A DNA stretch of 37,376 nt from a virus, in IMG/VR virus record IMGVR_UViG_3300028901_000135, positions 1-37,376 of that record; one strand, 5' to 3'. The first letter of the stretch is position 1; each line of letters starts with the position of its first letter. The notes beneath the pieces are model-generated. The model did no database searches. It was not told where the DNA came from and was given only the letters and a program-made list of their open reading frames with translations. The translations under genes and the position numbers were made by a program. Positions 1 to 37,376 of the stretch are shown piece after piece.

Positions 1-141
1 GTTTGCCCAGGAGGTGAATGAGACTACCTGGAACCTGCTGCGGGAGAGCCTGGCGGCCGGGTTGGAAGACGGAGACGGTTTGCAGAAGCTGATGGAGCGG
101 GTTGAAAGCGTAATGGGGGAGCGGATCCAAAGTTCGAGCGA
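1..141. repeat. Terminal redundancy: 1-141 is identical to 37236-37376, so the genome is circular or circularly permuted with a 37,235-bp unit
   Basis: Read directly: gtttgcccaggaggtgaatgag...ccaaagttcgagcga occurs at both window ends. The portal-MuF reading frame is continuous across the junction. Confidence 0.95.
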
Positions 142-442
142 GACGATCGCGCGGACGGAGGCGGTGGGGGCGATGAACGGAGGAAAGTTGGAGGCGTGGA
201 AGCAGGCAGATCAGTTGTATGGTACGCGCACCAAAAAGACCTGGCTGGCTGAGCTGGACGATCGCACCAGGGAGAGCCACGTGGAGGCGCACCGGCGGTA
301 CCAGGCGGAGCCGATTGATAAGGACGAGGATTTCGAGGTGGGCGGAGTGTTTGGGCCTGGGCCGGGAGAGTTGGGCGATCCGGGTGAAGACATCAACTGC
401 CGGTGCACGATGCAACCAGTCGTGGAAGAAGAAGAGATTTAA
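2..442 (+). CDS. 3' part of the portal-MuF fusion gene (continues 35419..37376 across the junction); SPP1 gp7 / Mu F-like head-morphogenesis domain
   Basis: Same frame as the 35419 ORF once 37236 is mapped to position 1. The C-terminal DINCRCTM motif is typical of the gp7/MuF family. Stop TAA 440-442 lies inside a family-K repeat. Confidence 0.8.
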   Translation, partial: FAQEVNETTWNLLRESLAAGLEDGDGLQKLMERVESVMGERIQSSSETIARTEAVGAMNGGKLEAWKQADQLYGTRTKKTWLAELDDRTRESHVEAHRRYQAEPIDKDEDFEVGGVFGPGPGELGDPGEDINCRCTMQPVVEEEEI

Positions 443-470
443 CCACGAAACACACGAAAGACACGAAAGG
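435..470 (+). repeat. Family-K repeat, copy 1 (ATTTAACCACGAAA-CACACGAAA-GACACGAAAGG: three tandem CACGAAANN 9-mers)
   Basis: Its TAA (440-442) terminates the portal-MuF gene. 435-468 is identical to 19085-19118. It is followed by aagagaag and ATG 482. Confidence 0.9.
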
Positions 471-481
471 AAGAGAAGAAA

Positions 482-688
482 ATGCCTAGCACGACGATCA
501 AATGGTTTGAAAACGCACATTTGCCGGAACACTTGCGAAAGGTGAGCAAGCCGGTTTGCGATCTGGCGGTATTGATGGAGAAAATGCTACCGGATGGGCC
601 AGAGAAGAGCGCGGGAATGCGCAAGCTGCTGGAGGCGAAGGATTGCTTCGTGCGGGCGGAGCTGGAAGCGAAGCCCAAGGAGGTGTGA
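482..688 (+). CDS. Hypothetical protein, 68 aa
   Basis: ATG 482 follows a purine-rich tract just after family-K copy 1. Stop TGA 686-688 abuts GTG 690 of the protease gene. No motif recognised. Confidence 0.5.
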   Translation: MPSTTIKWFENAHLPEHLRKVSKPVCDLAVLMEKMLPDGPEKSAGMRKLLEAKDCFVRAELEAKPKEV

Positions 689-3211: not shown

Positions 3212-3245
3212 GTGATCAGTGAGCAGTAATCGGTAAATGGTGAAG
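3212..3245 (+). repeat. Family-S stop-proximal short tandem motif (gtgatcagtgagcagtaatcggtaaatggtgaag)
   Basis: Begins 8 nt after the capsid stop and is rich in out-of-frame TGA/TAA. Confidence 0.8.
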
Positions 3246-3727: not shown

Positions 3728-3763
3728 CAGTAATCAGTGAGTAGTAATCAGTAATCAGTGAAG
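3728..3763 (+). repeat. Family-S motif (cagtaatcagtgagtagtaatcagtaatcagtgaag)
   Basis: Begins 11 nt after the stop of 3307..3717. Confidence 0.85.
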
Positions 3764-8849: not shown

Positions 8850-8873
8850 AGCCCCGGACTTAAGTCCGGGGCT
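8850..8873. repeat. Family-P palindrome agCCCCGGACTTAAGTCCGGGGct (perfect 24-nt dyad)
   Basis: Nine nt after the major tail gene stop; no T-run follows. Confidence 0.9.
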
Positions 8874-8891
8874 AAGGGGCGAGAGGGAGAT

Positions 8892-18096: not shown

Positions 18097-19092
18097 ATGG
18101 AAGCTAACAGCTATCAGCTAACAGCTATCAGCCAGAAACAGCGTGTAGAACGGCCCTGGGTGGAAAACTTCTTTGAGTTTCTGAGAGAAGAACGGGCTGA
18201 GAAGACTGTGGCGGCTTACGCGCAGGATTTGAAGCATTTTTGCGCGTGGTTCAAGCGGGCAAACGCGGAGGTCTTCGCGCCTGGACTTTTGAATACCAGG
18301 GATCTCCGGGATTATCGCACCTGGTGCCTGGAAGTGGAGCACGCGGCGCCGGCGACGTGGAACCGGCGGCGGGCGACGCTGCGCATCTTGTGTTCCTGGG
18401 TAGAGACGCACGAGGTAGAGACGCAAAATCTTGCGTCTCTACGGGTGGCCTGCGAGAAGGCGCTGAAACCTGCCGACGAGGTGGAACAGGCGCCGCGGTG
18501 GCTGGAGCCGTGGGAGGAGCGCAAGGTGCTGCGCCAGGTGGAGATCAACGTCAACGCGGCCAGGACCGTGCTCCAGCGAGAGCGGGCGCTGCGCGACGCG
18601 GCCATGGTCGCTCTGATGCGCTATGCGGGGCTGCGGGTGGACGAGGTGGCGAACCTCGAGGCGGGGGACGTGCAGATCTCGGAGCGCAAGGGGGAAGTGA
18701 CGGTGCGGCAGGGGAAGCGGGAGAAGACGCGGCGGGTGCCGTTGTCCAGTTCGGCGCGGGAGGCGATCTGTGCATGGATCGCTGTCCGCTGTCCGCTGTC
18801 CGCCGAGGCGCTGTTCTCGGACAAAAGCGGATCGCGGATCGCGGACCGCTCCATTCAGAAGCGTGTGGAGCTGCTGGCTGAGCAGACGGGGATCGATGAG
18901 CTGACCTGTCACGCGCTGCGGCACACGTGCGCGAAATCGATGGTCGATGCCGGGCGGCCGCTGACCGAAGTGCAGCGGATCCTGGGGCACGAGAAGCTGG
19001 AGACAACGGCGAGGTACGTGCAGCCGGGGCGGGAAGACCTGGCGGAGGCGGTCGAGGCGGGCGAACTTGGGAAGATGAGGAAGAAGATTTAA
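18097..19092 (+). CDS. Tyrosine recombinase (XerC/D-phage integrase family)
   Basis: SAM-like N-domain (TVAAYAQDLKHFCAWF) and a catalytic region with LRVDEV, HALRHTCAKSMV, LGHEKLETTARY. It carries in-frame repeats at 18103-18130, 18400-18442 and 18781-18801. Its stop is supplied by family-K copy 2. Confidence 0.85.
   Translation: MEANSYQLTAISQKQRVERPWVENFFEFLREERAEKTVAAYAQDLKHFCAWFKRANAEVFAPGLLNTRDLRDYRTWCLEVEHAAPATWNRRRATLRILCSWVETHEVETQNLASLRVACEKALKPADEVEQAPRWLEPWEERKVLRQVEINVNAARTVLQRERALRDAAMVALMRYAGLRVDEVANLEAGDVQISERKGEVTVRQGKREKTRRVPLSSSAREAICAWIAVRCPLSAEALFSDKSGSRIADRSIQKRVELLAEQTGIDELTCHALRHTCAKSMVDAGRPLTEVQRILGHEKLETTARYVQPGREDLAEAVEAGELGKMRKKI
18103..18130 (+). repeat. Tandem 14-mer x2 (gctaacagctatca)
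   Basis: Codons 3-11 of the annotated tyrosine recombinase (ANSYQLTAISQ). Confidence 0.9.
18400..18442. repeat. Family-V hairpin GTAGAGACGCAA-aatc-TTGCGTCTCTAC, preceded by a partial direct copy
   Basis: 12-bp stem at 18415-18442. In frame in the tyrosine recombinase (VETHEVETQNLASLRV). Confidence 0.9.
18781..18801 (+). repeat. Tandem 7-mer x3 (gctgtcc)
   Basis: In frame in the tyrosine recombinase (AVRCPLS). Confidence 0.9.
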
Positions 19093-19121
19093 CCACGAAA
19101 CACACGAAAGACACGAAAAGG
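19085..19121 (+). repeat. Family-K repeat, copy 2
   Basis: Its TAA (19090-19092) terminates the tyrosine recombinase. It is followed by aggagg and GTG 19129. Confidence 0.9.
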
Positions 19122-19128
19122 AGGAAAT

Positions 19129-19320
19129 GTGGAAGAAAAAGGGAAAGAGAGGGCGGTGGTCCACGTGCGGGTGACGACGGACCGGGTGTTGGTGGAGAGC
19201 GTGGCGACGCGGATCAGCGAGATCCTGGAAGCGGAGGGCTACGAGATCATCGAGCAAACCGGGCTGCGGGCGGACCGCGAGGATCCGCTCAACGGCAAGG
19301 TATTTATCACGGCGAGATAG
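19129..19320 (+). CDS. Hypothetical protein, 63 aa
   Basis: GTG 19129 follows aggagg. Confidence 0.45.
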   Translation: MEEKGKERAVVHVRVTTDRVLVESVATRISEILEAEGYEIIEQTGLRADREDPLNGKVFITAR

Positions 19321-20126: not shown

Positions 20127-20486
20127 ATGGCCAATCACGAATGGATGAAATGGGTGGGGATCGCGCTGTGCGCGACGACGACGGCGATGATCCTGCTGGC
20201 GCAGCACTACTGGCTGCGCGGGCGGCGGCTGCACCCGACGCTGAACTACATCCTGGGGACGCTGGCGATCTACCTGCCGCTGACGGGGCTGTTTTTGCTT
20301 TGGCACTCGTACCTGGTCGTGGCGGCGCTGTGGATCGTGACAGCGCTGGGCGGCGGGGCAGTGATCGCTTCGTACCTCGTCGACGGATGGTTAGGCGTGC
20401 GGGCCAGGTTGGAGGCGGCGGAAAACGAGAGCGGGTTGCTGAGGGAGGCGCTGCATGACGCGGGGCAGACTGGCGAGCTGGATTGA
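20127..20486 (+). CDS. Membrane protein, 119 aa (3 TM helices)
   Basis: Clear hydrophobic helices in this frame; the overlapping frame 20021..20458 turns into Ala/Gly/Arg/Asp-rich off-frame sequence. Confidence 0.6.
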   Translation: MANHEWMKWVGIALCATTTAMILLAQHYWLRGRRLHPTLNYILGTLAIYLPLTGLFLLWHSYLVVAALWIVTALGGGAVIASYLVDGWLGVRARLEAAENESGLLREALHDAGQTGELD

Positions 20487-20715
20487 GACGGCGCGCGAGC
20501 GGGTGGAGGGGGAGCTGGCCAGCCTGGGGACGGCGCGGGTTTTGATCGGGCTGGCGGCGGAGCGCGTGGAGAGCGCCTGGCTGAGCGGGCAGACGAGCGC
20601 GCTGGGGCCTGTGGGCGAGGACCTGGACCGGGCCGATGAGTTGATTCACCGGGTGCAATCCCGGATAAAAAATCGATTTGAAAGGGAATGCGGAAATGAA
20701 AACGATCGGATTTAG
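20455..20715 (+). CDS. Hypothetical protein, 86 aa
   Basis: Overlaps both neighbouring genes; helical sequence. Confidence 0.45.
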   Translation: MTRGRLASWIETARERVEGELASLGTARVLIGLAAERVESAWLSGQTSALGPVGEDLDRADELIHRVQSRIKNRFERECGNENDRI

Positions 20716-21307
20716 GCTGGAAGTGGAATTTTTGACCCCAGTTTTGGGGTCGCAGCCGGCGAATAAGGCGCTGGCCAGCGAGTTCATCGCCAAGCGCAAG
20801 GGCCTGGAGAGCCTGCCGGAGAACGAGGACGAGCTGCTGCCGGAGGCGGTGGAGAAGGGCACGACGGTTTTTTATCGCTGGCCGAAGGATGAGAATATTC
20901 CGGCGCTGCTGAATTACCAGGTGCTGGGTTTTCTGAAAGCCTCCGCGCAGGTGCAGAACGGGCGCGTCGAGGGTGGCGTGAAGGCGCTGAAGAGCAAGGT
21001 GGAGAACAATATTTTCGTTTCGCCGCGGGTGATCCCGCTGGAGCTGCCGGAGGGCGGCGAGATGGACTACCTGGAGCGACCGCTGCGGGCAGAGACGATG
21101 CAAGGGCCGCGGGTGACGCTGGCGCGGAGCGAGATGCTGCCCGAGGGAACGCGCTTCTCCTGCGGGGTGGAGATCCTGGACGGCGGGGCGATCAACGAGG
21201 GCGTGCTGCGGGATCTGCTGGACTACGGCTATTACCGCGGGTTAGGTCAGTGGCACAACAGCGGGAGTTACGGGACGTTCCGCTACACGCTGACGCGGGA
21301 AGACTGA
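20696..21307 (+). CDS. Hypothetical protein, 203 aa, with RAMP (Cas7/Csm3/Cmr-like) hallmark motifs
   Basis: ATG 20696. Ordered motifs: FRLEVEFLTPVLGS, IPALLNYQVLGFLKAS, SEMLPEGTRFSCGVEIL, and a C-terminal glycine-rich loop YYRGLGQWHNSGSYGTFRY. The assignment is pattern-based only. Confidence 0.6.
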   Translation: MKTIGFRLEVEFLTPVLGSQPANKALASEFIAKRKGLESLPENEDELLPEAVEKGTTVFYRWPKDENIPALLNYQVLGFLKASAQVQNGRVEGGVKALKSKVENNIFVSPRVIPLELPEGGEMDYLERPLRAETMQGPRVTLARSEMLPEGTRFSCGVEILDGGAINEGVLRDLLDYGYYRGLGQWHNSGSYGTFRYTLTRED

Positions 21308-22129
21308 GCGAGGGCGTTGCGCTGCTGGGCGGTGCTTTGATCTGCTTGGCGATGGATCGGCATAGTTGACCTCAGTTGAGCTGGGCGGCGGGAAGGCGTT
21401 GTAGGGCTGACCAATGAGGTGAAGCGATGGAACAGTCCCGTTCTGCGGCGGCATGGAGTGGTCAAGCAAGGCAGTGTGAAGGCAAAGTCGGGCCATGAGT
21501 GGCAAGGAAGTGTGACGGCAAAGTCGGGCCATGAGTGGCAAGGAAGTGTGACGGCTGGGCATCGTTTGGCACCCAAGGGAAACGCAGGGGAAGGGCGGAG
21601 CAGTTGGCTGCGGAGCAAGGGCAGGGATCGGTGATGAAAAGTATCGCATCGCGATGGCAAGGAGTTGTAGCGTGACACCAGGCAATGTTTGGCAAGGGCA
21701 TAGCAGAGCAGGGAACGATGTGCATGGGCTGGGCCACGAAAAGCCTTGCGCTGCCCGGCGAGGGTTGCGCATAGCACCGCTGTGACAAGCGAGAGCGTGG
21801 AGCTGCGGCGCGGGGCGTGGTTGCGGATAGCAATGGCAAGGAGAAGCTGTGAGATGTAGTGCGAAGGCTGTGAATGGATCGGAGTTGTGTTGTCGCGAGG
21901 GGCGAGGGCAAAGCAATGTGTTGCGCAGTCAAGTCTTGTAGAGGCTAAGTTTGTCTAAGCTATGTCTTGTGTCGGCCTTGAACAGCAGCGCGCTGAAGGG
22001 ATCCGTGAAGGTTAGGCAGTGCTAGGAAATGTCCGGCAACTGATTAGCGCAGTTAGGTTCGTTTGGCGAAGGCTATGGATAGCCTTGTTCAGAAAAGCAA
22101 AGGCAAAGTGCGGATTGAAGGGACATGCA
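21308..22129 (+). other. ~0.82-kb region with no credible ORF; repeat-containing, candidate non-coding RNA or protein-binding array
   Basis: All three + frames are dense with stops. The - strand ORFs are Pro/Ser/Cys/His-rich shadows. TGGCAAGGA recurs five times. Confidence 0.55.
21481..21552 (+). repeat. Two perfect tandem copies of a 36-nt unit (ggcaaagtcgggccatgagtggcaaggaagtgtgac), plus a degenerate partial copy at 21463-21480
   Basis: Read directly. Related 36-nt-spaced TGGCAAGG units occur at 21654 and 21690. Confidence 0.9.
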
Positions 22130-22402
22130 ATGGCAACGATTTGTGAAGCATGCGGCGAAGAGCCAGGCACGCACCACGTTACGCTGAGCGTGAGCGTGGT
22201 GGGGCCGAAGAGCGATAAGCGCAAGCTGGTCCAGTTCTGGCTGGGCGAGCGCTGCGTCAAGGCGCTGGCGCAAACCATGGAGCGCGGGCCGTCGCAGCGC
22301 ATGCGCGTGGCGCGGCGGATGACCGAATTCCCGGAGTATTTGAGCCATTGGAAGGATTGGCGTAACCGCACATGGCCGGATCGGGCGGAGGCCAGGCCGT
22401 GA
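22130..22402 (+). CDS. Hypothetical protein, 90 aa, N-terminal CxxC (MATICEACGEE...)
   Basis: ATG 22130 follows gaaggga. The upstream part of track ORF 22019 looks non-coding. Confidence 0.5.
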   Translation: MATICEACGEEPGTHHVTLSVSVVGPKSDKRKLVQFWLGERCVKALAQTMERGPSQRMRVARRMTEFPEYLSHWKDWRNRTWPDRAEARP

Positions 22403-26415: not shown

Positions 26416-26933
26416 GCAAGGCAGCGGGATGCAGCGGGTTGCTGGGGCTGGCGGGGATGGCTGTGGCGGGTGTCGCGCTGGTGTCGATGACCAGGGGCGA
26501 GGGGTTGGATACCTGGCCGATGCTGTGCGGGGGAGGGCTGGCGGGGCTTTTGTTTGGGAGTATTGCCATCGGAATGATGGCGCCAAAGGGGAGAAAGAAT
26601 TTTAACCACGAAACACACGAAACACACGAAAGGGGAGAAAGAAAAGAAGAATTTGTAGATACGCGGCAGACCCATGAGCGGGTGGTGCTGTCGAGGGGGT
26701 ACACCTGGCAGGAGGGCGGGAAAATTATGTCGGACAGGAGCCGGGAGTACCTGATTTATGAGGGGTACGCGATCGGGGTGCCGGGAGTGGATTATCCGGG
26801 CGAAGCGCCGGTGCTGCTGCCCGAGGCGGATGGGTGCTATCACCTGCCGGGAGTGGTGCTACACGGGGTGGAGCTGGGTGGGGCTATCCTGGCGCCGGAG
26901 TTTTTCAACCAATGGAGGGATGGAGATGCCTGA
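26412..26933 (+). CDS. Hypothetical protein, 173 aa: a 2-TM N-terminal part and a soluble C-terminal part joined through a family-K repeat
   Basis: The continuous ORF reads ...APKGRKNFNHETHETHERGERKEE.... An internal SD (caggaggg) plus ATG 26727 could also start the second part independently. Confidence 0.5.
   Translation: MSKAAGCSGLLGLAGMAVAGVALVSMTRGEGLDTWPMLCGGGLAGLLFGSIAIGMMAPKGRKNFNHETHETHERGERKEEFVDTRQTHERVVLSRGYTWQEGGKIMSDRSREYLIYEGYAIGVPGVDYPGEAPVLLPEADGCYHLPGVVLHGVELGGAILAPEFFNQWRDGDA
26599..26633 (+). repeat. Family-K repeat, copy 3
   Basis: Read through in frame as NFNHETHETHERG inside 26412..26933. Confidence 0.9.
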
Positions 26934-27204
26934 GATCGTGGTGATGATGACGCAAGATGAGTACCGGGAGCTCTTCGAGAAGGAGCGGCACCTGGCGTAT
27001 GAGTGCCTGGAGAGCGGGGAGGCTGAGCTGGTCAAGATCGGCCAGGTGATGCTGGGGAGGCGGTGGGCGGTGGATGACGAGGAGAACGCGCGGATCGAGG
27101 CGGAGATGGAGAGGATGTGGGCGTGGTTGAGAAGAGATCTTAACCACGAAATACACGAAACACACGAAATTGAGGAAAAGCAAAAGGAAGAGAAGGGAAA
27201 TTGA
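26920..27204 (+). CDS. Hypothetical protein, ~94 aa, C-terminal tail encoded by family-K copy 4
   Basis: ATG 26920 or 26926 follows ggaggga; overlaps the upstream stop. Confidence 0.5.
   Translation: MEMPEIVVMMTQDEYRELFEKERHLAYECLESGEAELVKIGQVMLGRRWAVDDEENARIEAEMERMWAWLRRDLNHEIHETHEIEEKQKEEKGN
27136..27169 (+). repeat. Family-K repeat, copy 4
   Basis: Read as DLNHEIHETHEI near the C-terminus of 26920..27204. It is followed by a purine-rich tract and ATG 27206. Confidence 0.9.
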
Positions 27205-28038: not shown

Positions 28039-28095
28039 GGAATATGCCGGATGGGGCATATGCGTATGTGGGCGGTGGGGGAGGGGTTGAAGAGA

Positions 28096-28133
28096 AGATT
28101 ATTAACCACTAAACACACGAAATACACGAAAGG
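28096..28133 (+). repeat. Family-K repeat, copy 5 (variant aaccacTaaa)
   Basis: Intergenic; followed by ggaagagaggagg and ATG 28149. Confidence 0.9.
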
Positions 28134-28148
28134 AAGAGAGGAGGAATC

Positions 28149-29162
28149 ATGGGCAAGAAGACGGGGATCAGCTGGTGCGACCACACGTTTAATCCGTGGT
28201 GGGGGTGCGTGAGGGTTAGCGCGGGGTGCGAGCGGTGTTATGCGGAGACGTTCGCGAGGCGGTTGGGGTTCGATGTGTGGGGGGAGAATCGTCCGCGACG
28301 GTTTTTTGGTGAGAAGCATTGGAACGAGCCGTTGCATTGGAACCGGCAGGCGGAGATGGAAGGAGTTCGAAGGCGGGTTTTTTGTGCTTCGATGGCGGAC
28401 GTGTTCGAAAATCCTCCCCTGGCGTTTTTGTTGAATGAGCGGTACAGGCTTTGGGAACTCGTCGAAAAGACGCCACAATTGGATTGGCTGGTGCTGACGA
28501 AGCGGCCGGAGAATATCAAGCCGTTCGTGCCGGAGAAATGGCTGAACTATGGCGGACCGGATCACGTGTTTATGGGGACGACGATCGAGCACCAGAACGT
28601 GGCGAAGAAGCGGCTGACTGATTTGTTCCGGTGGCCGGGGAGGAATTTTGTCAGCGTGGAGCCGATGCTGTCGCCGGTGAGCCTGGCGGAGGCGATCGAG
28701 CCGGAGGATGAGGATTGGGAGGCGGTGAACGCGATCAACGACGACCCAGAACCGGAGGAGTTCGAGGAAGAGTGCGAGGTGGAGTGCGACTGGGTCAATT
28801 ATGGGCATGACCTGGTGCCGAACCCGGAGCATTACGAGTGGGCGAGCTGGCGGCGATGGCGGGCGGGTTTGTTCGCGCTGGGGCGGCTGGTGGATTGGGT
28901 AATCATCGGGGGGGAGAGCGGGGCCGGTTGCAGGCCGATGGAGACCCGGTGGGTAGAGGCGCTGATGGATGAGTGCCTGATTGCGAAGGTGCCGGTGTTT
29001 GTGAAGCAGTTGGGGGGGCATCCGGATAAGCGAGACAGGATGGAGGAGTGGCCGGTGGCGTTGAGGAAGCAGGAGTTTCCGAGGAGCGGCGAGGATCTGA
29101 CCAGGTGGCTGATGTATGGGGATGAAGAGGGCGGGTCTACGGGTCAACATAGTCGCGGGTAG
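28149..29162 (+). CDS. Phage Gp37/Gp68 family (DUF5131)-like protein with an acidic insertion
   Basis: The N-terminal GISWCDHTFNPWWGCVRVSAGCERCYAE signature matches my recollection of DUF5131. ATG follows gaggagg. Confidence 0.75.
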   Translation: MGKKTGISWCDHTFNPWWGCVRVSAGCERCYAETFARRLGFDVWGENRPRRFFGEKHWNEPLHWNRQAEMEGVRRRVFCASMADVFENPPLAFLLNERYRLWELVEKTPQLDWLVLTKRPENIKPFVPEKWLNYGGPDHVFMGTTIEHQNVAKKRLTDLFRWPGRNFVSVEPMLSPVSLAEAIEPEDEDWEAVNAINDDPEPEEFEEECEVECDWVNYGHDLVPNPEHYEWASWRRWRAGLFALGRLVDWVIIGGESGAGCRPMETRWVEALMDECLIAKVPVFVKQLGGHPDKRDRMEEWPVALRKQEFPRSGEDLTRWLMYGDEEGGSTGQHSRG

Positions 29163-29223: not shown

Positions 29224-29733
29224 ATGTTAGAGAACAAAACGCAGGCTAAGCCAGTACTTATGACCTATGCGGCCAAAATGGGGCTGGAAGAGGTTATTAC
29301 CATGTTAGGCCATGATCCACGGCTGGTGGGGGTGGCGGAGCTGGAGGACGTGGCGCGGCGGTTGTGCGATGCGGCGGAGCACAATGGGCTGGAGCGGCCG
29401 AGCTGGGGCTGGCGCTATTTGCGGAATGTGCTGAACGGGAAGCTGGAGGCGAGCAAGCGGTTGACGGATGCGATCCTGCGTTTGGGGGCGCTGTTGGATG
29501 GGGCACCGGCTGAGGCGATCGCGGGGGAGCGGGTGACGATCCTTGCGCTGGGGCGTGTGGCGGCGGGGGCGGTGGTCTTGGCTGATTCGCGGCCGTGCGG
29601 GAACCCGGGGTGCAGGGTGGAGTTTGTGCCGCGGGTGCCGTGGCAGAGGTTTCATTCGCGGGAGTGCGGAAAGATCGTAAGAAATTTAAACCACGAAATA
29701 CACGAAAAACACGAAAGGGGAAAGAAGAGGTGA
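29224..29733 (+). CDS. Hypothetical protein, 169 aa, with a C-terminal Cys cluster (CGNPGCRVEF...FHSRECG) and a family-K-encoded tail
   Basis: ATG 29224 follows caggagg. The track's upstream extension runs through tandem repeats. Confidence 0.55.
   Translation: MLENKTQAKPVLMTYAAKMGLEEVITMLGHDPRLVGVAELEDVARRLCDAAEHNGLERPSWGWRYLRNVLNGKLEASKRLTDAILRLGALLDGAPAEAIAGERVTILALGRVAAGAVVLADSRPCGNPGCRVEFVPRVPWQRFHSRECGKIVRNLNHEIHEKHERGKKR
29681..29718 (+). repeat. Family-K repeat, copy 6
   Basis: Read as NLNHEIHEKHERG at the C-terminus of 29224..29733. Confidence 0.9.
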
Positions 29734-29826
29734 AAAAAAAGTGGCGGTTTATTCGGGCGCAGTATGCGACGAGCTGGTGGCAGGCGGTGCTGATCTGGTT
29801 GATGGAGAGAGGAGGCGGTTTTTACC

Positions 29827-31028: not shown

Positions 31029-31348
31029 GCGAGATGGTGGCTTGGCGATGCCCGAGGGGGCATGTGCTGGGGCAGGTGCGGCGGAACGGGAGTAAGCGGC
31101 AGCGGCTCCTATTGTATAGGCTGGCCGTCGACCTCTCCCCCATCCCCTCCCCTAAAGGGGAGGGGAGTCTTGAGGAGGTTGACGTGATGGCGGTGGTGGA
31201 GGGGTTGGTGCTGGATGTGCGGTGCAGTATCTGCGGGGGGATCCGGACGTGGCGCCCCGGACTAAAGTCCGGGGCTAGCAAAAACGAAGCCGGGGCTACC
31301 AAAAACGAAGCCGGGGCTACAAAAAGAGAAGAGAGAGAGGAGCTATGA
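31025..31348 (+). CDS. Hypothetical zinc-ribbon-like protein, 107 aa (CPRGH...CSICGG)
   Basis: ATGA overlap at 31025. Contains family-H and family-P copies and a 21-nt tandem repeat, all in frame. Confidence 0.5.
   Translation: MSEMVAWRCPRGHVLGQVRRNGSKRQRLLLYRLAVDLSPIPSPKGEGSLEEVDVMAVVEGLVLDVRCSICGGIRTWRPGLKSGASKNEAGATKNEAGATKREEREEL
31132..31167 (+). repeat. Family-H hairpin repeat
   Basis: In frame in 31025..31348 (DLSPIPSPKGEGS). Confidence 0.9.
31254..31275. repeat. Family-P palindrome gCCCCGGACTAAAGTCCGGGGc
   Basis: In frame in 31025..31348 (RPGLKSGA). Confidence 0.9.
31271..31325 (+). repeat. Tandem 21-mer x2.6 (ggggctaNcaaaaacgaagcc)
   Basis: In frame as GASKNEA GATKNEA GATKRE at the C-terminus of 31025..31348. 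Confidence 0.9.
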
Positions 31349-31839: not shown

Positions 31840-31840
31840 A

Positions 31841-31860
31841 CCCCAGACTAAAGTCTGGGG
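31841..31860. repeat. Family-P palindrome CCCCAGACTAAAGTCTGGGG
   Basis: Starts 2 nt after the stop of 31345..31839. Confidence 0.9.
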
Positions 31861-31871
31861 CCAGGGAAGAG

Positions 31872-33796: not shown

Positions 33797-35325
33797 TGCC
33801 AGCAAGGATTACACCGGATGCGGCGCTGGCGGAGCGGGCACGGCGAGAGCTGGCGCGGCGCGGGCTGATCGCGTTTTCGGAGTACGTGGCGCCATGGTAC
33901 CGGACGGGGCGGCATCACCGGCTGGTGGCGGAGAAGCTGGAGCTGGTGCTGCGGTATATCGAGACGAAGGGCAAGGAGGGGATCGGGCGGCTGATCATCT
34001 CGGAGCCGCCGCGGCATGGGAAGACGGAGCAGGTGAGCCGGTTGTTCCCGGCGTATCTGCTGGGACGGCTGCCCGATTCGCGGGTGATCGTGACCTCATA
34101 CGGCGCCGACCTGGCGCAGGACGATTCCAGGGCGGTGCGGCAGTACGTGACGAGCGACCGGTACAGCGCGCTGTTTGGGCAGCAGAGCGCGGTGGACGAC
34201 GCGGTGGAGCTGGCCTATGACGCGAGGGCGCGTGCGAACTGGAACCTGGCGGAGCCGCACCGGGGCGGGGTGGTGGCGGCTGGCGTGGGCGGCGGTATCA
34301 CGGGTAAAGGCGCGCACCTGCTGATCGTGGACGACCCTTTCAAGAACCGGGACGAGGCGGAGAGCGAGGCCTACCGCAAGCGGGTGGTGAGCTGGTGGAC
34401 GAGCTCAGCGTATACCCGCCTGGAAGAGGGGGCGGCGATCGTGATCACGCATACGCGGTGGAACCGGGACGACCTGGCGGGGTATCTGTTGCAGCAGATG
34501 GTGCAGGACCCACTGCTGGCGGACCAGTACGAGGTGCTTTACCTGCCCGCGCTGGCGCTGGAGGAGGACGAGTACTGCCGGGACGAGGCGGATTTTCTGA
34601 AAAATCTGGAGCGGGGGCTGTTCGTTCCGGCTGCCGATCCGCTGGGGAGGGCGCCAGGCGAGGCGCTGTGGCCGGAGAAGTATACGCGGGAGGCGCTGGC
34701 GCGAATCCGGGCGAACGTGCTGGATTTTGAGTTTACCTGTTTGTACCAGCAGCTGCCCAGACCTCAAACGGGTGGATTTTTCGATGAGGCAGACCTGGTG
34801 GTAGTAGATCGCGCGCCGGAGGGGTTGCGTTGGTTCCGGTATGTGGACCTGGCGCTGGGTAAAACGAAAACGGCAGACTGGAACACAACGGTGGCCACCG
34901 CGCTGGACCAGGCGACGGGTGACGTTTATTTCCGGGATCTGCTGCATGTGCACGAGCTGGGCGATTTCGAGGACCAGGTCGTGGAGCTGATCAAGGCCGA
35001 TTCGGAGATGGGGACGATCTGGGGGTTCGAGGATGTGAGCTTCCAGGAGCTGTTTATGCTGGACCTGCTGAAGAAGCCGGAGCTGGCGAACAAGAACATC
35101 GTGCCGGTGGCACCGATCGGGGATAAGGTGAGTCGTGCGCGGCCTCTGCAACTGAGGGCGAAGCAGGGGAAGGTGAAGTTGGTGAGAGGGCCGTGGAACC
35201 GGACGTTCATCAATGAGTGCCTGGGTTTCCCGGCGGGGAAGCACGACGATATCGTGGACACGGCGAGCATGGGTTTGCAGATGGTGGCGAGCCCGATTGT
35301 GATCGGTGAGGATGCAGTCGTGTGA
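33796..35325 (+). CDS. Terminase large subunit
   Basis: Walker A ISEPPRHGKTE, Walker B HLLIVDDPFKN, and a C-terminal nuclease-type region. The order terminase-portal-protease-capsid is the classical one. Confidence 0.9.
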   Translation: MPARITPDAALAERARRELARRGLIAFSEYVAPWYRTGRHHRLVAEKLELVLRYIETKGKEGIGRLIISEPPRHGKTEQVSRLFPAYLLGRLPDSRVIVTSYGADLAQDDSRAVRQYVTSDRYSALFGQQSAVDDAVELAYDARARANWNLAEPHRGGVVAAGVGGGITGKGAHLLIVDDPFKNRDEAESEAYRKRVVSWWTSSAYTRLEEGAAIVITHTRWNRDDLAGYLLQQMVQDPLLADQYEVLYLPALALEEDEYCRDEADFLKNLERGLFVPAADPLGRAPGEALWPEKYTREALARIRANVLDFEFTCLYQQLPRPQTGGFFDEADLVVVDRAPEGLRWFRYVDLALGKTKTADWNTTVATALDQATGDVYFRDLLHVHELGDFEDQVVELIKADSEMGTIWGFEDVSFQELFMLDLLKKPELANKNIVPVAPIGDKVSRARPLQLRAKQGKVKLVRGPWNRTFINECLGFPAGKHDDIVDTASMGLQMVASPIVIGEDAVV

Positions 35326-35404
35326 ACAGTGAACAGTGAGCGGTGAGCAGTAATGAGTAACCCCCACCCGGGGTGAGGGTAACTGGAAACTGGTAACTGG
35401 TGAG
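35322..35404 (+). repeat. Family-S motif block (gtgaacagtgaacagtgagcggtgagcagtaatgagtaac ... ggtaactggaaactggtaactggtgag)
   Basis: Begins at the TerL stop codon and fills the TerL-portal spacer. Confidence 0.85.
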
Positions 35405-35418
35405 AGCAAAGAGGCAGC

Positions 35419-37376
35419 ATGGGTATAGCTGATACATTCGGAAAACTTGCGGGGCGGTTTGAGGCGGCGCGGCGGGCGTTCGTGCTGGGGCCGGGGGTGG
35501 TGGACCCATACGAGACGGCGATGGGGCACGACACCTCGAAATTCACGGACGAGGCGTATGGGGATTACATCGTTACCTCGAGCGCGGTGTATTCGTGCGT
35601 GACGCTGAAAGCCAACCTGTTTAAAGGGTTGAACTTCAAGCCGTATAAGCTGGGGGCGGATGGGACGAAGGTGGAGGTGACGAAGGGGAACCTGGTCAAT
35701 CTTTTACGTAAGTTCAATCCGTTCTGGTCGATGCGGCGCGCGCTGGAGATGTATTCCAAGTCGATGGGGTTATGGGGGAAAAACTTCTGGTTCTGCGAGC
35801 GGGGTGAGAGCGGAAAGATGCCGCCGCGGGAAATCTGGTGGGGGAGGCCGGACCGGGTGAAGATCGTGCCGGATGAGGTGAATTACATCAAGAAATTTCT
35901 GTACTACCCGGTGAATTCTACGGTGCCGCTGGTGTTCGACCCGTGGGAGGTGATCTGGTTCCGCTATGGAAACCCACTGGACGAGTACGAGGGGCTGGCG
36001 CCGGTGGCGGCGGCGCGGATCGCGGCAGACCTGCGCAGCTCCGCGTTTCAGAGCAACAAGAAGTTGTTCGACCAGGGGATGCAACTGGGCGGGGCGATTA
36101 CGCCGCCGAAGGGAAGCACGCTGGAGAAGGAGCAGGCGCGGGAGATCGAGGAGATGGTCAATAAGCGCTTTACCGGGGTGGAGAGGGCGCACCGGTGGGC
36201 GGTGTTCCGCTACGAGTTCGATATGAAGCAGCAGGGGATCAACGCGCGAGACGCGGAGTTCTTGGGGACGCTCAATCTGACGCTGGAGGAGGTGGCGAGG
36301 GTTTACGGTATCCCGCTAGACCTGGTTGGAGGGGAGCGGACCTATGAGAACGTGGAGGCGAGCGAGCGGGCGATCTGGACGCGGACATTGAAACCGGAGG
36401 CGGAGGATTTCGCGGCCGAGCTGACCGAGCAGCTGCTGCCGATGTTCCCGGGCGAGGCGGACATCATCGAGCCGGATCTGAGCGAGGTGGAGGTTCTGCA
36501 CGAGAGCGAGACGGCGGCCTGGGAGCGAGACAAGGGGAAGATCGAGACGGGGGCGAAGAAGATCAACGAGTGGCGGAAGGAGCAGGGATTAGAGCCGGTG
36601 CCGTGGGGGGATGTGTGGTGGGCGCAGGGGACGCTGAGGCCGGTGAAGGAGGCGGAGGAGGAATTCACCGCAGAGGACCCAGAGAACACTGAGGGAGAAG
36701 AGGAAAATTTAACCACGAAAAACACGAAAGGCACGAAAGGGGAAGAAGAGGAAAACGCGGACGAGGAAGATAACGCGGACGAGGAAGGAACCTCTCCCCC
36801 ACCCTCCCCTAAAGGGAAGGGAGCGGAGGAAGAGGCGGCTAGGGATACCCGCCCTACGCGGACCAGAGCATGGGTGGGAATGAAGTTTGGGAGCGAGGAG
36901 CATGCGCGGGCGTGGCGGGCGTTCGAGCGTAAGGCGGTGAAGTGGGAACGGCGGACGCGGGAGATGGTGGTGGACTTGTTCCGACGTCAGAAGGAGAGCG
37001 TGTTGGCGCGGATGGGCGACCAGCGGGCCGCGCGGACGGCGGATGAGGCGGCGAAGGAACCGTTCAACCGGAAGGAATGGATTCGTAAATTTCGCATCGA
37101 GATGCGGGCTTTATTGGAGGATTTATTGGAGGAGGTAGGGGAAGATGCGTTCGACGAGATCCCCGGAGGTAATGGTGGCACGTTCGATGTGAAGGCGCCG
37201 GCAGTAAGGCGGTTTATGGAGCGGCGGGCGCAGCGGTTTGCCCAGGAGGTGAATGAGACTACCTGGAACCTGCTGCGGGAGAGCCTGGCGGCCGGGTTGG
37301 AAGACGGAGACGGTTTGCAGAAGCTGATGGAGCGGGTTGAAAGCGTAATGGGGGAGCGGATCCAAAGTTCGAGCGA
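35419..37376 (+). CDS. Portal protein (HK97 family) fused in frame to a MuF/gp7-like domain; runs off the window and continues at 2..442 (752 aa in total)
   Basis: Not in the ORF track because there is no stop in the window. ATG 35419. Portal-type sequence (SAVYSCVTLKANL..., GLAPVAAARIAADL, EEVARVYGIPLDLVGG). A repeat-built linker at ~36700-36860 leads into the MuF-like region. Confidence 0.85.
   Translation, partial: MGIADTFGKLAGRFEAARRAFVLGPGVVDPYETAMGHDTSKFTDEAYGDYIVTSSAVYSCVTLKANLFKGLNFKPYKLGADGTKVEVTKGNLVNLLRKFNPFWSMRRALEMYSKSMGLWGKNFWFCERGESGKMPPREIWWGRPDRVKIVPDEVNYIKKFLYYPVNSTVPLVFDPWEVIWFRYGNPLDEYEGLAPVAAARIAADLRSSAFQSNKKLFDQGMQLGGAITPPKGSTLEKEQAREIEEMVNKRFTGVERAHRWAVFRYEFDMKQQGINARDAEFLGTLNLTLEEVARVYGIPLDLVGGERTYENVEASERAIWTRTLKPEAEDFAAELTEQLLPMFPGEADIIEPDLSEVEVLHESETAAWERDKGKIETGAKKINEWRKEQGLEPVPWGDVWWAQGTLRPVKEAEEEFTAEDPENTEGEEENLTTKNTKGTKGEEEENADEEDNADEEGTSPPPSPKGKGAEEEAARDTRPTRTRAWVGMKFGSEEHARAWRAFERKAVKWERRTREMVVDLFRRQKESVLARMGDQRAARTADEAAKEPFNRKEWIRKFRIEMRALLEDLLEEVGEDAFDEIPGGNGGTFDVKAPAVRRFMERRAQRFAQEVNETTWNLLRESLAAGLEDGDGLQKLMERVESVMGERIQSSS
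36703..36740 (+). repeat. Family-K repeat, copy 7
   Basis: Read in a different frame (ENLTTKNTKGTKG) in the portal-MuF linker. Confidence 0.9.
36791..36822 (+). repeat. Family-H hairpin repeat
   Basis: In frame in the portal-MuF linker (GTSPPPSPKGKGA). Confidence 0.9.
37236..37376. repeat. Second copy of the 141-bp terminal redundancy
   Basis: Identical to 1-141. Confidence 0.95.

What the first reader, a model, noticed from the sequence alone, without database searches (positions are those of the whole stretch)
20696..21307. Lone RAMP (Cas7/Csm3/Cmr-like) candidate protein in a phage early operon with no other cas genes
The 203-aa product carries, in the canonical order and spacing, four segments I associate with RAMP-superfamily proteins.
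- An N-terminal strand ending in a Gly turn (FRLEVEFLTPVLGS; compare the ...TgLHIGgg start of Csm3).
- An IP....G.LK segment (IPALLNYQVLGFLKAS; compare IPGSSIKGKMR).
- An E-x-L-x-x-G-T-x-F-x-x-x-V-x-I strand pair (SEMLPEGTRFSCGVEIL).
- About 20 residues later, a C-terminal glycine-rich loop (YYRGLGQWHNSGSYGTFRY; compare YLGGGGTRGNGRIQF).

No Cas10, Cas5, Cas6 or Cas1 and no CRISPR array is present in this complete genome. The gene is the last cistron of the early operon and abuts an 0.8-kb ORF-free repeat region. The genome also carries 16 same-orientation ~32-nt hairpin repeats (family H) that are CRISPR-repeat-like in size and shape.

Possible roles, all speculative:
- an RNA-binding or RNA-processing factor for phage transcripts;
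- a decoy or anti-CRISPR that captures host crRNA or Cas partners;
- an effector guided by the adjacent RNA.
Basis: partly seen in the sequence, partly recalled or inferred. Interest (0 to 1): 0.72.

Follow-up and report, generated by a model that had tools for sequence, protein, structure and literature searches.

The report
Phage VIPR system: lone RAMP plus guide array
The 203-aa protein really is a stand-alone Cas7-like RAMP, and with the 0.8-kb stretch of 5-base repeats next to it forms a VIPR system, a phage RNA-guided DNA-binding system first described in 2026 preprints.

Summary
ORF 20696-21307 encodes a conserved 203-aa protein with no Pfam, PHROG or PADLOC hit. A confident AlphaFold model (pLDDT 84) matches only Cas7-type RAMPs among its top 50 PDB hits. 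A family profile aligns its glycine loop to type VII Cas7 and Csm4.

The adjacent "ORF-free repeat region" is the other half of the system. All 12 strongest period-5 windows in the genome lie at 21.3-22.1 kb. Close relatives (79-89% protein identity) keep only a G at every fifth base there. In 59 of 76 related viral loci the strongest period-5 signal lies within 800 nt of the homologue (12.8 expected).

This is the signature of VIPR (Vipr RAMP plus vrRNA pentamer repeats; bioRxiv 10.64898/2026.04.26.720920). A profile-profile comparison with the validated SUSP1 Vipr clade gives a full-length alignment (E 5e-6).

This clade is a variant. Its repeat is G-Y-N-N-N rather than G-G-Y-N-N, and the two G1-reading residues are replaced. 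The array is continuous, about 22 segments of 6-8 pentamers, with +1-nt slips between them. It is followed by a small Zn-ribbon ORF.

Targets were not found. Verdict: a new member of a recently described kind.

The parts
20696..21307 (+). vipr gene: 203-aa single-RRM RAMP. Predicted beta1 at 3-12 with the LGSQP loop; alpha-helical bundle insertion at about 22-56; helix 1 at 73-86; thumb beta-hairpin at 124-148; G-loop at 181-194 (GLGQWHNSGSYG); last strand at 195-202.
   Evidence: ORF and translation. Family alignment A1. AF2 model with pLDDT 84, pTM 0.77. Foldseek top 50 hits all Cas7/Csm3/Cmr4/Cas7-11. Profile hit to type VII Cas7 and Csm4. hhalign to the SUSP1 Vipr clade: E 5.3e-6 over 192 columns.
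21314..22132 (+). Candidate vrRNA array: about 160 pentamers of form x-G-Y-n-n with the G ladder on the gene strand. They form about 22 consecutive segments of mostly 31, 36 or 41 nt (6-8 pentamers plus 1), each followed by a +1-nt register slip whose junction reads xGGYNN. It fills the whole interval from the vipr stop to the next ORF's ATG.
   Evidence: All 12 top period-5 windows of the genome lie here. Pentamer layout. Viterbi segmentation. In close relatives only a G at every 5th base is invariant; conservation autocorrelation peaks at lags 5, 10 and 15. The same architecture occurs downstream of homologues across the family.
21466..21555 (+). It is a recent duplication of one array segment (7 pentamers + 1 nt).
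   Evidence: Tandem Repeats Finder. Segments 21482-21517 and 21518-21553 differ only in their last unit (CGGCA versus CGGCT).
22130..22402 (+). 90-aa CxxC...CxxC (zinc-ribbon-like) ORF directly after the array. Candidate clade-specific accessory (vap-like) gene; function unassigned. The second CxxC is degenerate in this genome (GERC).
   Evidence: Most widely shared neighbour: 13 of 79 loci, same strand, median 600 nt downstream of the RAMP gene. Only 8 database homologues. No informative Pfam, PDB or fold match; AF2 pLDDT 63.
20455..20715 (+). 86-aa ORF whose 3' end overlaps the vipr start by 20 nt, suggesting translational coupling. Second, weaker candidate for an accessory gene; function unknown.
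   Evidence: ORF list. Conserved at the same position in 5 close relatives. No Pfam or PHROG hit.

Best explanation
This is a VIPR (Viral Interference Programmable Repeat) system carried by a temperate phage, probably of Chloroflexota. It has two parts: a vipr gene (20696-21307) encoding a minimal single-RRM RAMP, and, on the same strand, an 820-nt array of pentamer repeats (21314-22132) that most likely encodes its guide RNAs (vrRNAs).

The mechanism is inferred from the experimentally characterised type II homologue in phage SUSP1. Vipr protomers polymerise along the repeat RNA, one per pentamer. The G-loop Trp and the thumb sequester the conserved G-Y of each repeat. The variable bases are presented to pair non-contiguously with double-stranded DNA. 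The bound filament then represses transcription of the target, most plausibly a competing phage or prophage.

Shown here: the RAMP fold, homology to Vipr, the period-5 G-ladder array with hypervariable interstitial bases, and its family-wide linkage to the gene.

Inferred: transcription of the array (probably by read-through from the vipr operon, since no sigma-70-like promoter consensus was found in the region and the terminator-like hits do not exceed the shuffled expectation), processing into units of about 31-41 nt, RNP formation, DNA binding, and the biological target.

This clade differs from SUSP1 in four ways. Its repeat is G-Y-N-N-N. The two residues that read the first G are replaced (H17 to Ser19, D177 to Gln185), while the G2-stacking Trp is invariant. 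The array is continuous and staggered, with no 3' tails. The neighbouring small gene is a Zn-ribbon protein rather than vap1.
For: Fold: AF2 pLDDT 84. Foldseek PDB top 50 are all Cas7-type RAMPs, best E 2.6e-8. The BFVD best hit (37% identity) is already labelled 'Cas system-associated RAMP superfamily protein'.

Sequence: the A1 profile hits type VII Cas7 at E 0.0023 and Csm4 at E 0.017, aligned at the G-loop. hhalign of A1 against the SUSP1-clade profile gives probability 85.9%, E 5.3e-6, 192 collinear columns. Among ORFs of at least 60 aa in the fetched first 50 kb of SUSP1, the family profile's best hit is Vipr.

Array: the 12 strongest period-5 windows of the genome all lie in 21306-22140, with no enrichment there at periods 3, 4, 6 or 7. 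In relatives with 79-89% identical proteins the spacer is about 53% identical, and the invariant columns are a G every 5 nt.

Linkage: in 59 of 76 viral loci the strongest period-5 window lies within 800 nt of the gene (45 downstream, 14 upstream) against 12.8 expected. Control periods give 5, 10 and 11. Strict YNNGG runs lie almost exclusively on the gene strand.

Positive control: the same metric and segmentation recover the four published SUSP1 vrRNA tracts.

Residue and repeat co-variation: Trp186 is invariant in the A1 family alignment (Phe or Asn in a few of the 87 loci), and the ladder G it would stack on is the conserved base in close relatives. Ser/Thr19 and Gln185 replace the G1 readers, and G1 sits at background frequency (0.25). 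Arg187 loci have Y3 at 0.78 and His187 loci at 0.65.

Context: phage hallmarks and no cas genes. VIPR is defined.
Against: No run of four or more strict YNNGG units occurs in the window, so the match is to the paper's 'related consensus' (YNNNG/NNNNG), which I could only read about, not see. The homology to SUSP1 Vipr rests on profile-profile comparison (probability 86%) and is not unambiguous. No conserved 3' tail or pseudoknot was found, and Rfam found no hammerhead or other family. There is no expression or binding data. No target was found under NN rules (skip 0-3) or NNN rules (skip 0-2), either in the phage itself or in the locally held related loci (0.78 Mb in the NN test, somewhat more in the NNN test). 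The accessory gene is unassigned. The residue and repeat correlations are phylogenetically non-independent.
Confidence: 0.85

Rival explanations
1. The 0.8-kb spacer is the phage replication origin (iterons or bent DNA) served by the adjacent primase, and the RAMP-fold protein is an origin-binding or single-strand-binding replication factor.
For: The spacer lies between the gene and a 957-aa primase (Toprim plus CHC2 zinc finger). It contains a 36-nt tandem repeat. The same synteny occurs in close relatives.
Against: Iterons are repeated, conserved words. Here everything except one G per 5 nt is hypervariable between near-identical phages. The primase neighbour is shared by only 6 of 79 loci, whereas the period-5 tract accompanies the gene in 59 of 76. 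The G ladder is strand-specific and on the gene strand. The homologous SUSP1 tracts are proven RNAs.
Confidence: 0.04
2. A lone Cas7 mimic acting as an anti-CRISPR or decoy that soaks up host crRNA or poisons host type III or type I complexes.
For: Cas7-like fold with an intact G-loop and thumb. Phage-encoded with no partner cas genes.
Against: The family is tightly linked to its own pentamer arrays rather than to CRISPR-repeat-like sequences. Its full-length profile match is to Vipr, whereas its sequence-profile match to CRISPR RAMPs covers only the G-loop. The family spans hosts from Chloroflexota to Firmicutes, Planctomycetota and archaea, which argues against mimicry of one host complex.
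Confidence: 0.03
3. A Cas6-like RNA-processing or RNA-binding factor for the dispersed GC-rich hairpins (family H) or other phage transcripts.
For: RAMP fold. 11-15 same-sense hairpin repeats in the genome.
Against: The fold matches are to Cas7-type backbone subunits, not Cas6. The hairpins are dispersed and mostly inside ORFs. No linkage between the hairpins and the gene was seen. The conserved neighbour across the family is the pentamer array.
Confidence: 0.03
4. A decaying VIPR remnant: the protein is intact but the array has degenerated and no longer yields functional guides.
For: No strict YNNGG run of four or more units. The Arg-to-His change at the Y3-contacting position. The degenerate second CxxC in the neighbouring ORF.
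Against: The G ladder is maintained across about 160 pentamers and in relatives whose interstitial bases have turned over completely, which implies selection. The G-Y-N-N-N form is family-wide, not a local decay. The protein's invariant residues are all present.
Confidence: 0.05

Closest known systems
VIPR systems (Vipr RAMP + vrRNA), type II exemplar Escherichia phage SUSP1 (bioRxiv 10.64898/2026.04.26.720920 and 10.64898/2026.04.26.720927)
   Same: Phage-encoded protein of about 200 aa with a single RRM, alpha-bundle insertion, thumb hairpin and G-loop. Full-length profile-profile alignment. Conserved G-loop Trp (W178 in SUSP1, W186 here). Same-strand intergenic pentamer repeats with a conserved G/Y and hypervariable other bases. 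No cas genes and no CRISPR array. No self-targets under the published rule.
   Different: The repeat is G-Y-N-N-N (first G not conserved) rather than G-G-Y-N-N. The G1-reading His17 and Asp177 are Ser/Thr and Gln here. The array is one continuous 820-nt tract of about 22 segments, mostly 5k+1 nt long, joined by +1 slips, rather than four discrete ~100-nt vrRNAs each with a 3' pseudoknot tail. The neighbouring small gene is a Zn-ribbon protein with no detected similarity to vap1. The paper mentions YNNNG repeats and 'staggered arrays with 1-nt overlapping vrRNAs' among its seven types. I could not see the figures or data tables, so I could not assign the type.
Type VII and type III CRISPR-Cas backbone subunits (Cas7, Csm3, Cmr4, Cas7-11 domains)
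   Same: Best structural matches (TM 0.5-0.59, Foldseek probability 1.0). The G-loop aligns at sequence-profile level. Similar size to type VII Cas7 (about 200 aa).
   Different: No Cas10, Cas5, Cas14 or Cas6, and no CRISPR array. No hit to Pfam RAMP models. Sequence identity is 8-18%. It carries an alpha-bundle insertion that, per the VIPR structure paper, plays the small-subunit role. The cognate RNA is a pentamer repeat rather than a repeat-spacer unit.
Uncharacterised viral RAMP-like proteins in BFVD (A0A8S5R426 'Cas system-associated RAMP superfamily protein', Siphoviridae sp. ctcMb1; Betalipothrixvirus A7WKN2)
   Same: Same fold. A0A8S5R426 is a true family member at 37% identity.
   Different: These carry only automated labels. 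No function or RNA partner was assigned to them.

Membership tests
VIPR system | Vipr protein: minimal RAMP with a single RRM core, glycine-rich loop and thumb, and no second RRM | tested here: met
   The AF2 model (pLDDT 84) has beta-alpha-beta...alpha-(G-loop)-beta topology with a long beta-hairpin at 124-148. All top 50 PDB fold hits are Cas7-type RAMPs. The G-loop aligns to Cas7 and Csm4. At 203 aa there is no room for a second RRM.
VIPR system | Sequence homology to an experimentally validated Vipr (SUSP1) | tested here: met
   hhalign of A1 against the SUSP1-clade alignment A3: probability 85.9%, E 5.3e-6, 192 collinear columns. The A1 profile's best hit among the SUSP1 ORFs searched (first 50 kb) is Vipr (E 0.0064). 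This is moderate rather than overwhelming support.
VIPR system | Flanking intergenic tandem pentanucleotide repeats with conserved G(G)Y alternating with hypervariable bases (vrRNA) | tested here: met
   Period-5 power: the top 12 windows of the genome all lie in the spacer. The invariant G at every 5th base among relatives, with about 53% overall spacer identity. Family-wide linkage in 59 of 76 loci against 12.8 expected. Positive control on SUSP1.
VIPR system | Canonical YNNGG consensus, at least 4 consecutive units (the paper's search criterion) | tested here: not met
   There are no strict runs in the window. Family-wide, G1 is at background (mean 0.25) and Y3 at about 0.78, so the repeat is G-Y-N-N-N. 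The paper lists YNNNG, NNNGG and NNNNG as accepted alternatives, so this does not exclude membership.
VIPR system | Protein residues that read the repeat (SUSP1: H17 and D177 for G1; R138 and W178 for G2; R179 for Y3) | tested here: inconclusive
   Using the hhalign register: W178 maps to W186 (invariant in the A1 family alignment). R179 maps to R187 (R in 78 of 87 loci, His in the window). H17 maps to Ser/Thr19 and D177 to Gln185 in all loci. Thumb R138 could not be placed unambiguously; R144 is a candidate. The pattern matches the relaxed G1.
VIPR system | vrRNAs are expressed, co-purify with Vipr and guide dsDNA binding by a gapped code | not testable with these tools
   This needs small-RNA sequencing, pull-down and binding or reporter assays. 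In-silico target searches found nothing.
VIPR system | An accessory vap gene in the locus | tested here: inconclusive
   A conserved Zn-ribbon ORF follows the array in 13 of 79 loci but has no informative profile or fold match. The upstream overlapping 86-aa ORF is conserved only in 5 close relatives. Neither was compared with the published vap1-6 beyond SUSP1 vap1.
VIPR system | Non-CRISPR, mostly viral or proviral context | tested here: met
   Circular 37.2-kb genome with terminase, Mu-F-like protein, integrase and primase. No Cas Pfam family and no CRISPR-like array. Homologues lie on viral contigs and in prophage-like regions of MAGs.
VIPR type II (SUSP1-like) | Discrete ~100-nt vrRNAs of 9-16 in-phase repeats, each capped by a conserved 3' tail or pseudoknot | tested here: not met
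   The window's array is continuous, with a +1 slip after every 6-8 pentamers in most segments and no inter-unit tails. Relatives behave the same way: 719 of 796 slips are +1 and lengths peak at 5k+1. SUSP1 gives four separate tracts.
CRISPR-Cas type III/VII effector (Cas7/Csm3/Cmr4) | Encoded with Cas10 or Cas5 or Cas14 and a CRISPR array; matches curated RAMP profiles | tested here: not met
   No Pfam hit at E<=10 for the protein, no PADLOC hit, no cas neighbours and no CRISPR array.

The most novel reading that the evidence does not exclude
This clade may use a recognition code different from the published GGY/NN, 1-nt-skip rule. Only G-Y is anchored, since the G1-reading His and Asp are replaced by Ser/Thr and Gln. 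That leaves three programmable bases per pentamer. The guides are short, 4-8 pentamers, packed head-to-tail in 1-nt-staggered register, and a 37-kb phage would carry more than 20 of them. If so, the pairing geometry (for example three contiguous target bases per protomer with no skip), the processing mechanism at the xGGYNN junctions, and the role of the Zn-ribbon partner would all be new.
Probability: 0.3. Interest if true: 0.7.

Novelty: new member of a known kind. Interest (0 to 1): 0.5.

Why it matters
VIPR is a newly reported class of RNA-guided DNA recognition, proposed to be ancestral to CRISPR RAMPs. So far only type II systems (SUSP1 and P. fulva) have been dissected mechanistically.

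This locus is a complete, compact example from an uncultured, probably Chloroflexota-infecting temperate phage. Its repeat consensus (G-Y-N-N-N) and array architecture (about 22 staggered short segments) differ from type II, and matching substitutions occur at the two protein positions that read the first G in SUSP1.

That makes it a natural test of how the protein and the RNA code co-vary, and of whether three bases per repeat can be programmed.

It also shows that a simple period-5 spectral scan next to a small RAMP gene finds these systems reliably. The scan recovered the SUSP1 vrRNAs and flagged 59 of 76 related loci.

Tried and rejected
1. Single-sequence searches against Pfam, PHROGs, PADLOC and PDB gave nothing. 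Only the family profile and the fold search were informative.

2. Megablast of the region against GenBank phages found no match. tblastn found only unannotated gut-phage relatives.

3. Rfam at gathering threshold gave no family, so there is no hammerhead-interspersed array or known RNA.

4. A strict YNNGG regular expression found nothing in the spacer. I replaced it with spectral and Viterbi analyses.

5. Target prediction covered three dinucleotide registers, each with skips of 0-3, and NNN triplets with skips of 0-2. The searches ran against the phage itself and the locally held related loci (0.78 Mb for the dinucleotide rules). There were no self-hits and no excess over shuffled guides. I did not scan the public collections. 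A single 7-unit segment specifies only 14 bases, where chance hits would swamp real ones, and the collection scans accept exact matches only.

6. Zn-ribbon neighbour: profile search against PDB, Pfam on 12 members, AF2 (pLDDT 63) and Foldseek all gave nothing significant.

7. Type assignment from the paper's supplements was not possible because none are held. P0309 turned out to be X0TDZ5, not the paper's seed X1U2U4.

8. The promoter/terminator consensus scan of 20.3-22.75 kb found no promoter-like site, and terminator-like hits did not exceed the shuffled expectation.

9. The origin-of-replication, anti-CRISPR decoy and hairpin-processing readings were considered and rejected, for the reasons given under the rival explanations.
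Full report
**1. The observation**

The window is a circularly assembled phage genome of 37,235 bp; positions 1-141 repeat at 37236-37376. All genes are on the + strand and GC skew is strongly positive.

It has no hit in Pfam, PHROGs or PADLOC at E<=10, and no single-sequence PDB hit.

It nevertheless belongs to a large unannotated family. There are 423+ clusters at 90% identity, many on 35-39-kb contigs, and 1,978 clusters at 50% identity with E<=1e-3.

**2. Is it a RAMP?**

Yes. A profile of 51 family members finds, in the whole PDB sequence set, the type VII CRISPR Cas7 (E 0.0023) and Csm4 (E 0.017). Both align over the strand, helix, glycine loop and final strand at the C-terminus.

An AlphaFold2 model built from the alignment is confident (pLDDT 84, pTM 0.77). 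It has an RRM-like order of elements, a long beta-hairpin (124-148) and a glycine loop before the last strand.

Foldseek against the PDB returns 134 hits at E<=1e-3. The top 50 are all Cas7-type RAMPs: type VII Cas7, Csm3, Cmr4 and Cas7-11 (best E 2.6e-8, TM 0.5-0.59).

In the viral structure library the best hit (37% identity) already carries an automated label, 'Cas system-associated RAMP superfamily protein'.

About 45 ORFs of the genome scanned against Pfam give integrase, primase (Toprim plus CHC2 zinc finger), large terminase, Mu-F-like head protein, DUF5131 and a beta-helix protein. None is a Cas family. No CRISPR-like array exists.

**3.

A literature search turned up two 2026 bioRxiv preprints describing VIPR systems. 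These consist of a phage-encoded minimal RAMP (Vipr) and guide RNAs (vrRNAs) encoded in the flanking intergenic DNA. The vrRNAs are tandem pentamers in which a conserved GGY alternates with hypervariable NN.

Vipr polymerises one protomer per pentamer and flips out GGY. It presents NN for pairing to dsDNA with a one-base skip, and so represses competing phages.

I therefore tested the 0.8-kb spacer for period-5 structure.

- A strict YNNGG run of four or more units is absent.
- In a sliding 60-nt Fourier analysis, the 12 strongest period-5 windows of the entire genome all lie in 21306-22140. The maximum is 4.13 against a genome 99.5th percentile of 2.76. Periods 3, 4, 6 and 7 show no enrichment there.
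- Written out in pentamers the tract reads x-G-Y-n-n.

Three relatives have proteins 89%, 87% and 79% identical to the window's. Their spacers align at only about 53% identity, and the invariant columns are a G at every fifth base.

The autocorrelation of conservation peaks at lags 5, 10 and 15. G is invariant at 32% of its positions, against 5% for C or T. A fixed scaffold base with fast-evolving interstitial bases is what the paper describes for vrRNAs.

**4. Family-wide linkage and controls**

I analysed 76 distinct IMG/VR loci encoding homologues at 33-79% identity. The strongest period-5 window of each ~10-kb locus lies within 800 nt of the gene in 59 loci (45 downstream, 14 upstream). 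Length alone predicts 12.8. The same test at periods 4, 6 and 7 gives 5, 10 and 11.

Strict YNNGG runs, where present, are almost all on the gene strand and mostly 67-510 nt downstream.

As a positive control I fetched Escherichia phage SUSP1. The same metric picks out exactly the intergenic regions flanking its vipr-vap1 pair. My ladder segmentation resolves four discrete in-phase tracts, one upstream and three downstream, as published.

**5. Homology to a validated Vipr**

Among ORFs of at least 60 aa in the fetched first 50 kb of SUSP1, the family profile's best hit is the 195-aa Vipr, aligned at GVGDWRPRFGRF against GLGQWRNGAYGRF.

A profile built from 44 SUSP1-clade proteins aligns to my family profile over 192 collinear columns. 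The probability is 85.9% and E is 5.3e-6. The alignment includes the helical insertion at about 22-56, which the structure paper calls the alpha-bundle.

**6. Anatomy of this array**

A Viterbi trace divides 21314-22132 into about 22 consecutive segments, mostly 31, 36 or 41 nt long (6-8 pentamers plus 1). The register advances by +1 nt between segments, and most junctions read xGGYNN.

This is a family property. Of 796 register changes in relatives' arrays, 719 are +1. Segment lengths peak at 21, 26, 31, 36, 41 and 46 nt. Control coding DNA shows almost no ladder.

The paper mentions 'staggered arrays' whose vrRNAs overlap by 1 nt. This is probably that architecture, but I could not view the figure or the data tables.

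The region has no sigma-70-like promoter consensus. Its terminator-like hits (3, one of them at the 5' edge of the array) do not exceed the shuffled expectation of 1.9. Read-through from the vipr operon is therefore the simplest transcription model, but this is an inference.

**7. Protein and RNA co-variation**

In SUSP1, G1 is read by H17 and D177. G2 is held by thumb R138 and stacks on W178. Y3 is held by R179.

Using the hhalign register, these map to Ser19, Gln185, Trp186 and His187 in the window. Across 87 distinct loci:

- Position 186 is Trp in nearly all loci and is invariant in the 51-sequence alignment A1. A few of the 87 loci have Phe or Asn there.
- Position 185 is always Gln.
- Position 19 is Ser or Thr in 85 of the 87 loci (Gly in the other two).
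- G1 sits at background frequency (mean 0.25).
- Y3 is 0.78 in the 78 Arg187 loci and 0.65 in the 8 His187 loci.

So the residue that stacks on the retained G is retained, and the residues that read the lost G are lost. This correlation is suggestive. It is phylogenetically non-independent and depends on a remote alignment.

**8. Other components and context**

The most widely shared neighbour is a small CxxC...CxxC ORF directly after the array (window 22130-22402). It is present in 13 of 79 loci, all from the window's sub-clade. It has only 8 database homologues and no informative profile or fold match. Calling it a vap is conjecture.

An 86-aa ORF overlaps the vipr start by 20 nt.

The closest cellular copies are in Anaerolinea/Anaerolineales and other Chloroflexota MAGs at 56% identity. 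More distant members occur in Planctomycetota, Firmicutes, Desulfobacterota and an archaeon.

**9. Targets**

I applied dinucleotide rules in three alternative registers, each with skips of 0-3 (this includes the published 1-nt-skip rule), and triplet rules suggested by the G-Y-N-N-N repeat.

I found no self-targets, which agrees with the paper's control. There was no excess over shuffled guides in the locally held related loci (0.78 Mb for the dinucleotide rules). The natural target is unknown.

**10. Verdict**

The system as a whole is a VIPR locus, a kind described in 2026 preprints. It is therefore a new member of a known kind rather than categorically new.

Its specific features are experimentally uncharacterised and leave room for a variant recognition code. 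These features are the G-Y-N-N-N repeats, the substituted G1 readers, a continuous staggered array of about 22 short segments, the Zn-ribbon neighbour and the probable Chloroflexota phage host.

Noticed in passing
window 1-141 and 37236-37376: Identical 141-nt terminal direct repeat, so the window is a circularly closed (or terminally redundant) 37,235-bp genome. All ORFs are on the + strand and GC skew is uniformly positive.
   Followed up: partly
window 430-491, 19080-19141, 26593-26654, 27131-27192, 28093-28142, 29678-29739, 36700-36761: Seven copies of TTTAACCACGAAACACACGAAAGACACGAAAGG (three CACGAAA words about 10 nt apart), mostly in intergenic DNA just upstream of ORF starts. This may be a phage-specific promoter, operator or leader element.
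   Followed up: no
10 of 15 lie inside ORFs, including the primase. They look like REP/MITE-like elements rather than CRISPR repeats, and no link to the RAMP gene was seen.
   Followed up: partly
window 3212-3236, 3730-3754, 35322-35360: A GTGAnCAGTGAGCAGTAAT motif (period-7 signal, rich in stop codons) sits immediately after the stops of three large genes, including the terminase. Function unknown.
   Followed up: no
window 31254-31331 (also 8851-8874, 31840-31863): Hairpin GCCCCGGACTAAAGTCCGGGGC followed by three tandem 21-nt units CCGGGGCTAnCAAAAACGAAG. Two further copies of the hairpin occur elsewhere.
   Followed up: no
proteins P0124 (458 aa) and P0127 (432 aa): Some family members are about twice the normal length and match the profile in two stretches. 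They may be tandem-fused Vipr-like proteins, reminiscent of Cas7 fusions.
   Followed up: no
BFVD hits A7WKN2 (Betalipothrixvirus) and A0A0A0P750 (Los Azufres archaeal virus 2): Archaeal virus proteins of about 160 aa share the fold at E 6e-5 to 4e-4. This agrees with the reported presence of Vipr-like RAMPs in archaeal viruses.
   Followed up: no
window 28149-29162: The 337-aa product is a strong DUF5131 (phage Gp37/Gp68) match (E 1e-58). It is one of the few annotatable genes in the late part of the early region.
   Followed up: no
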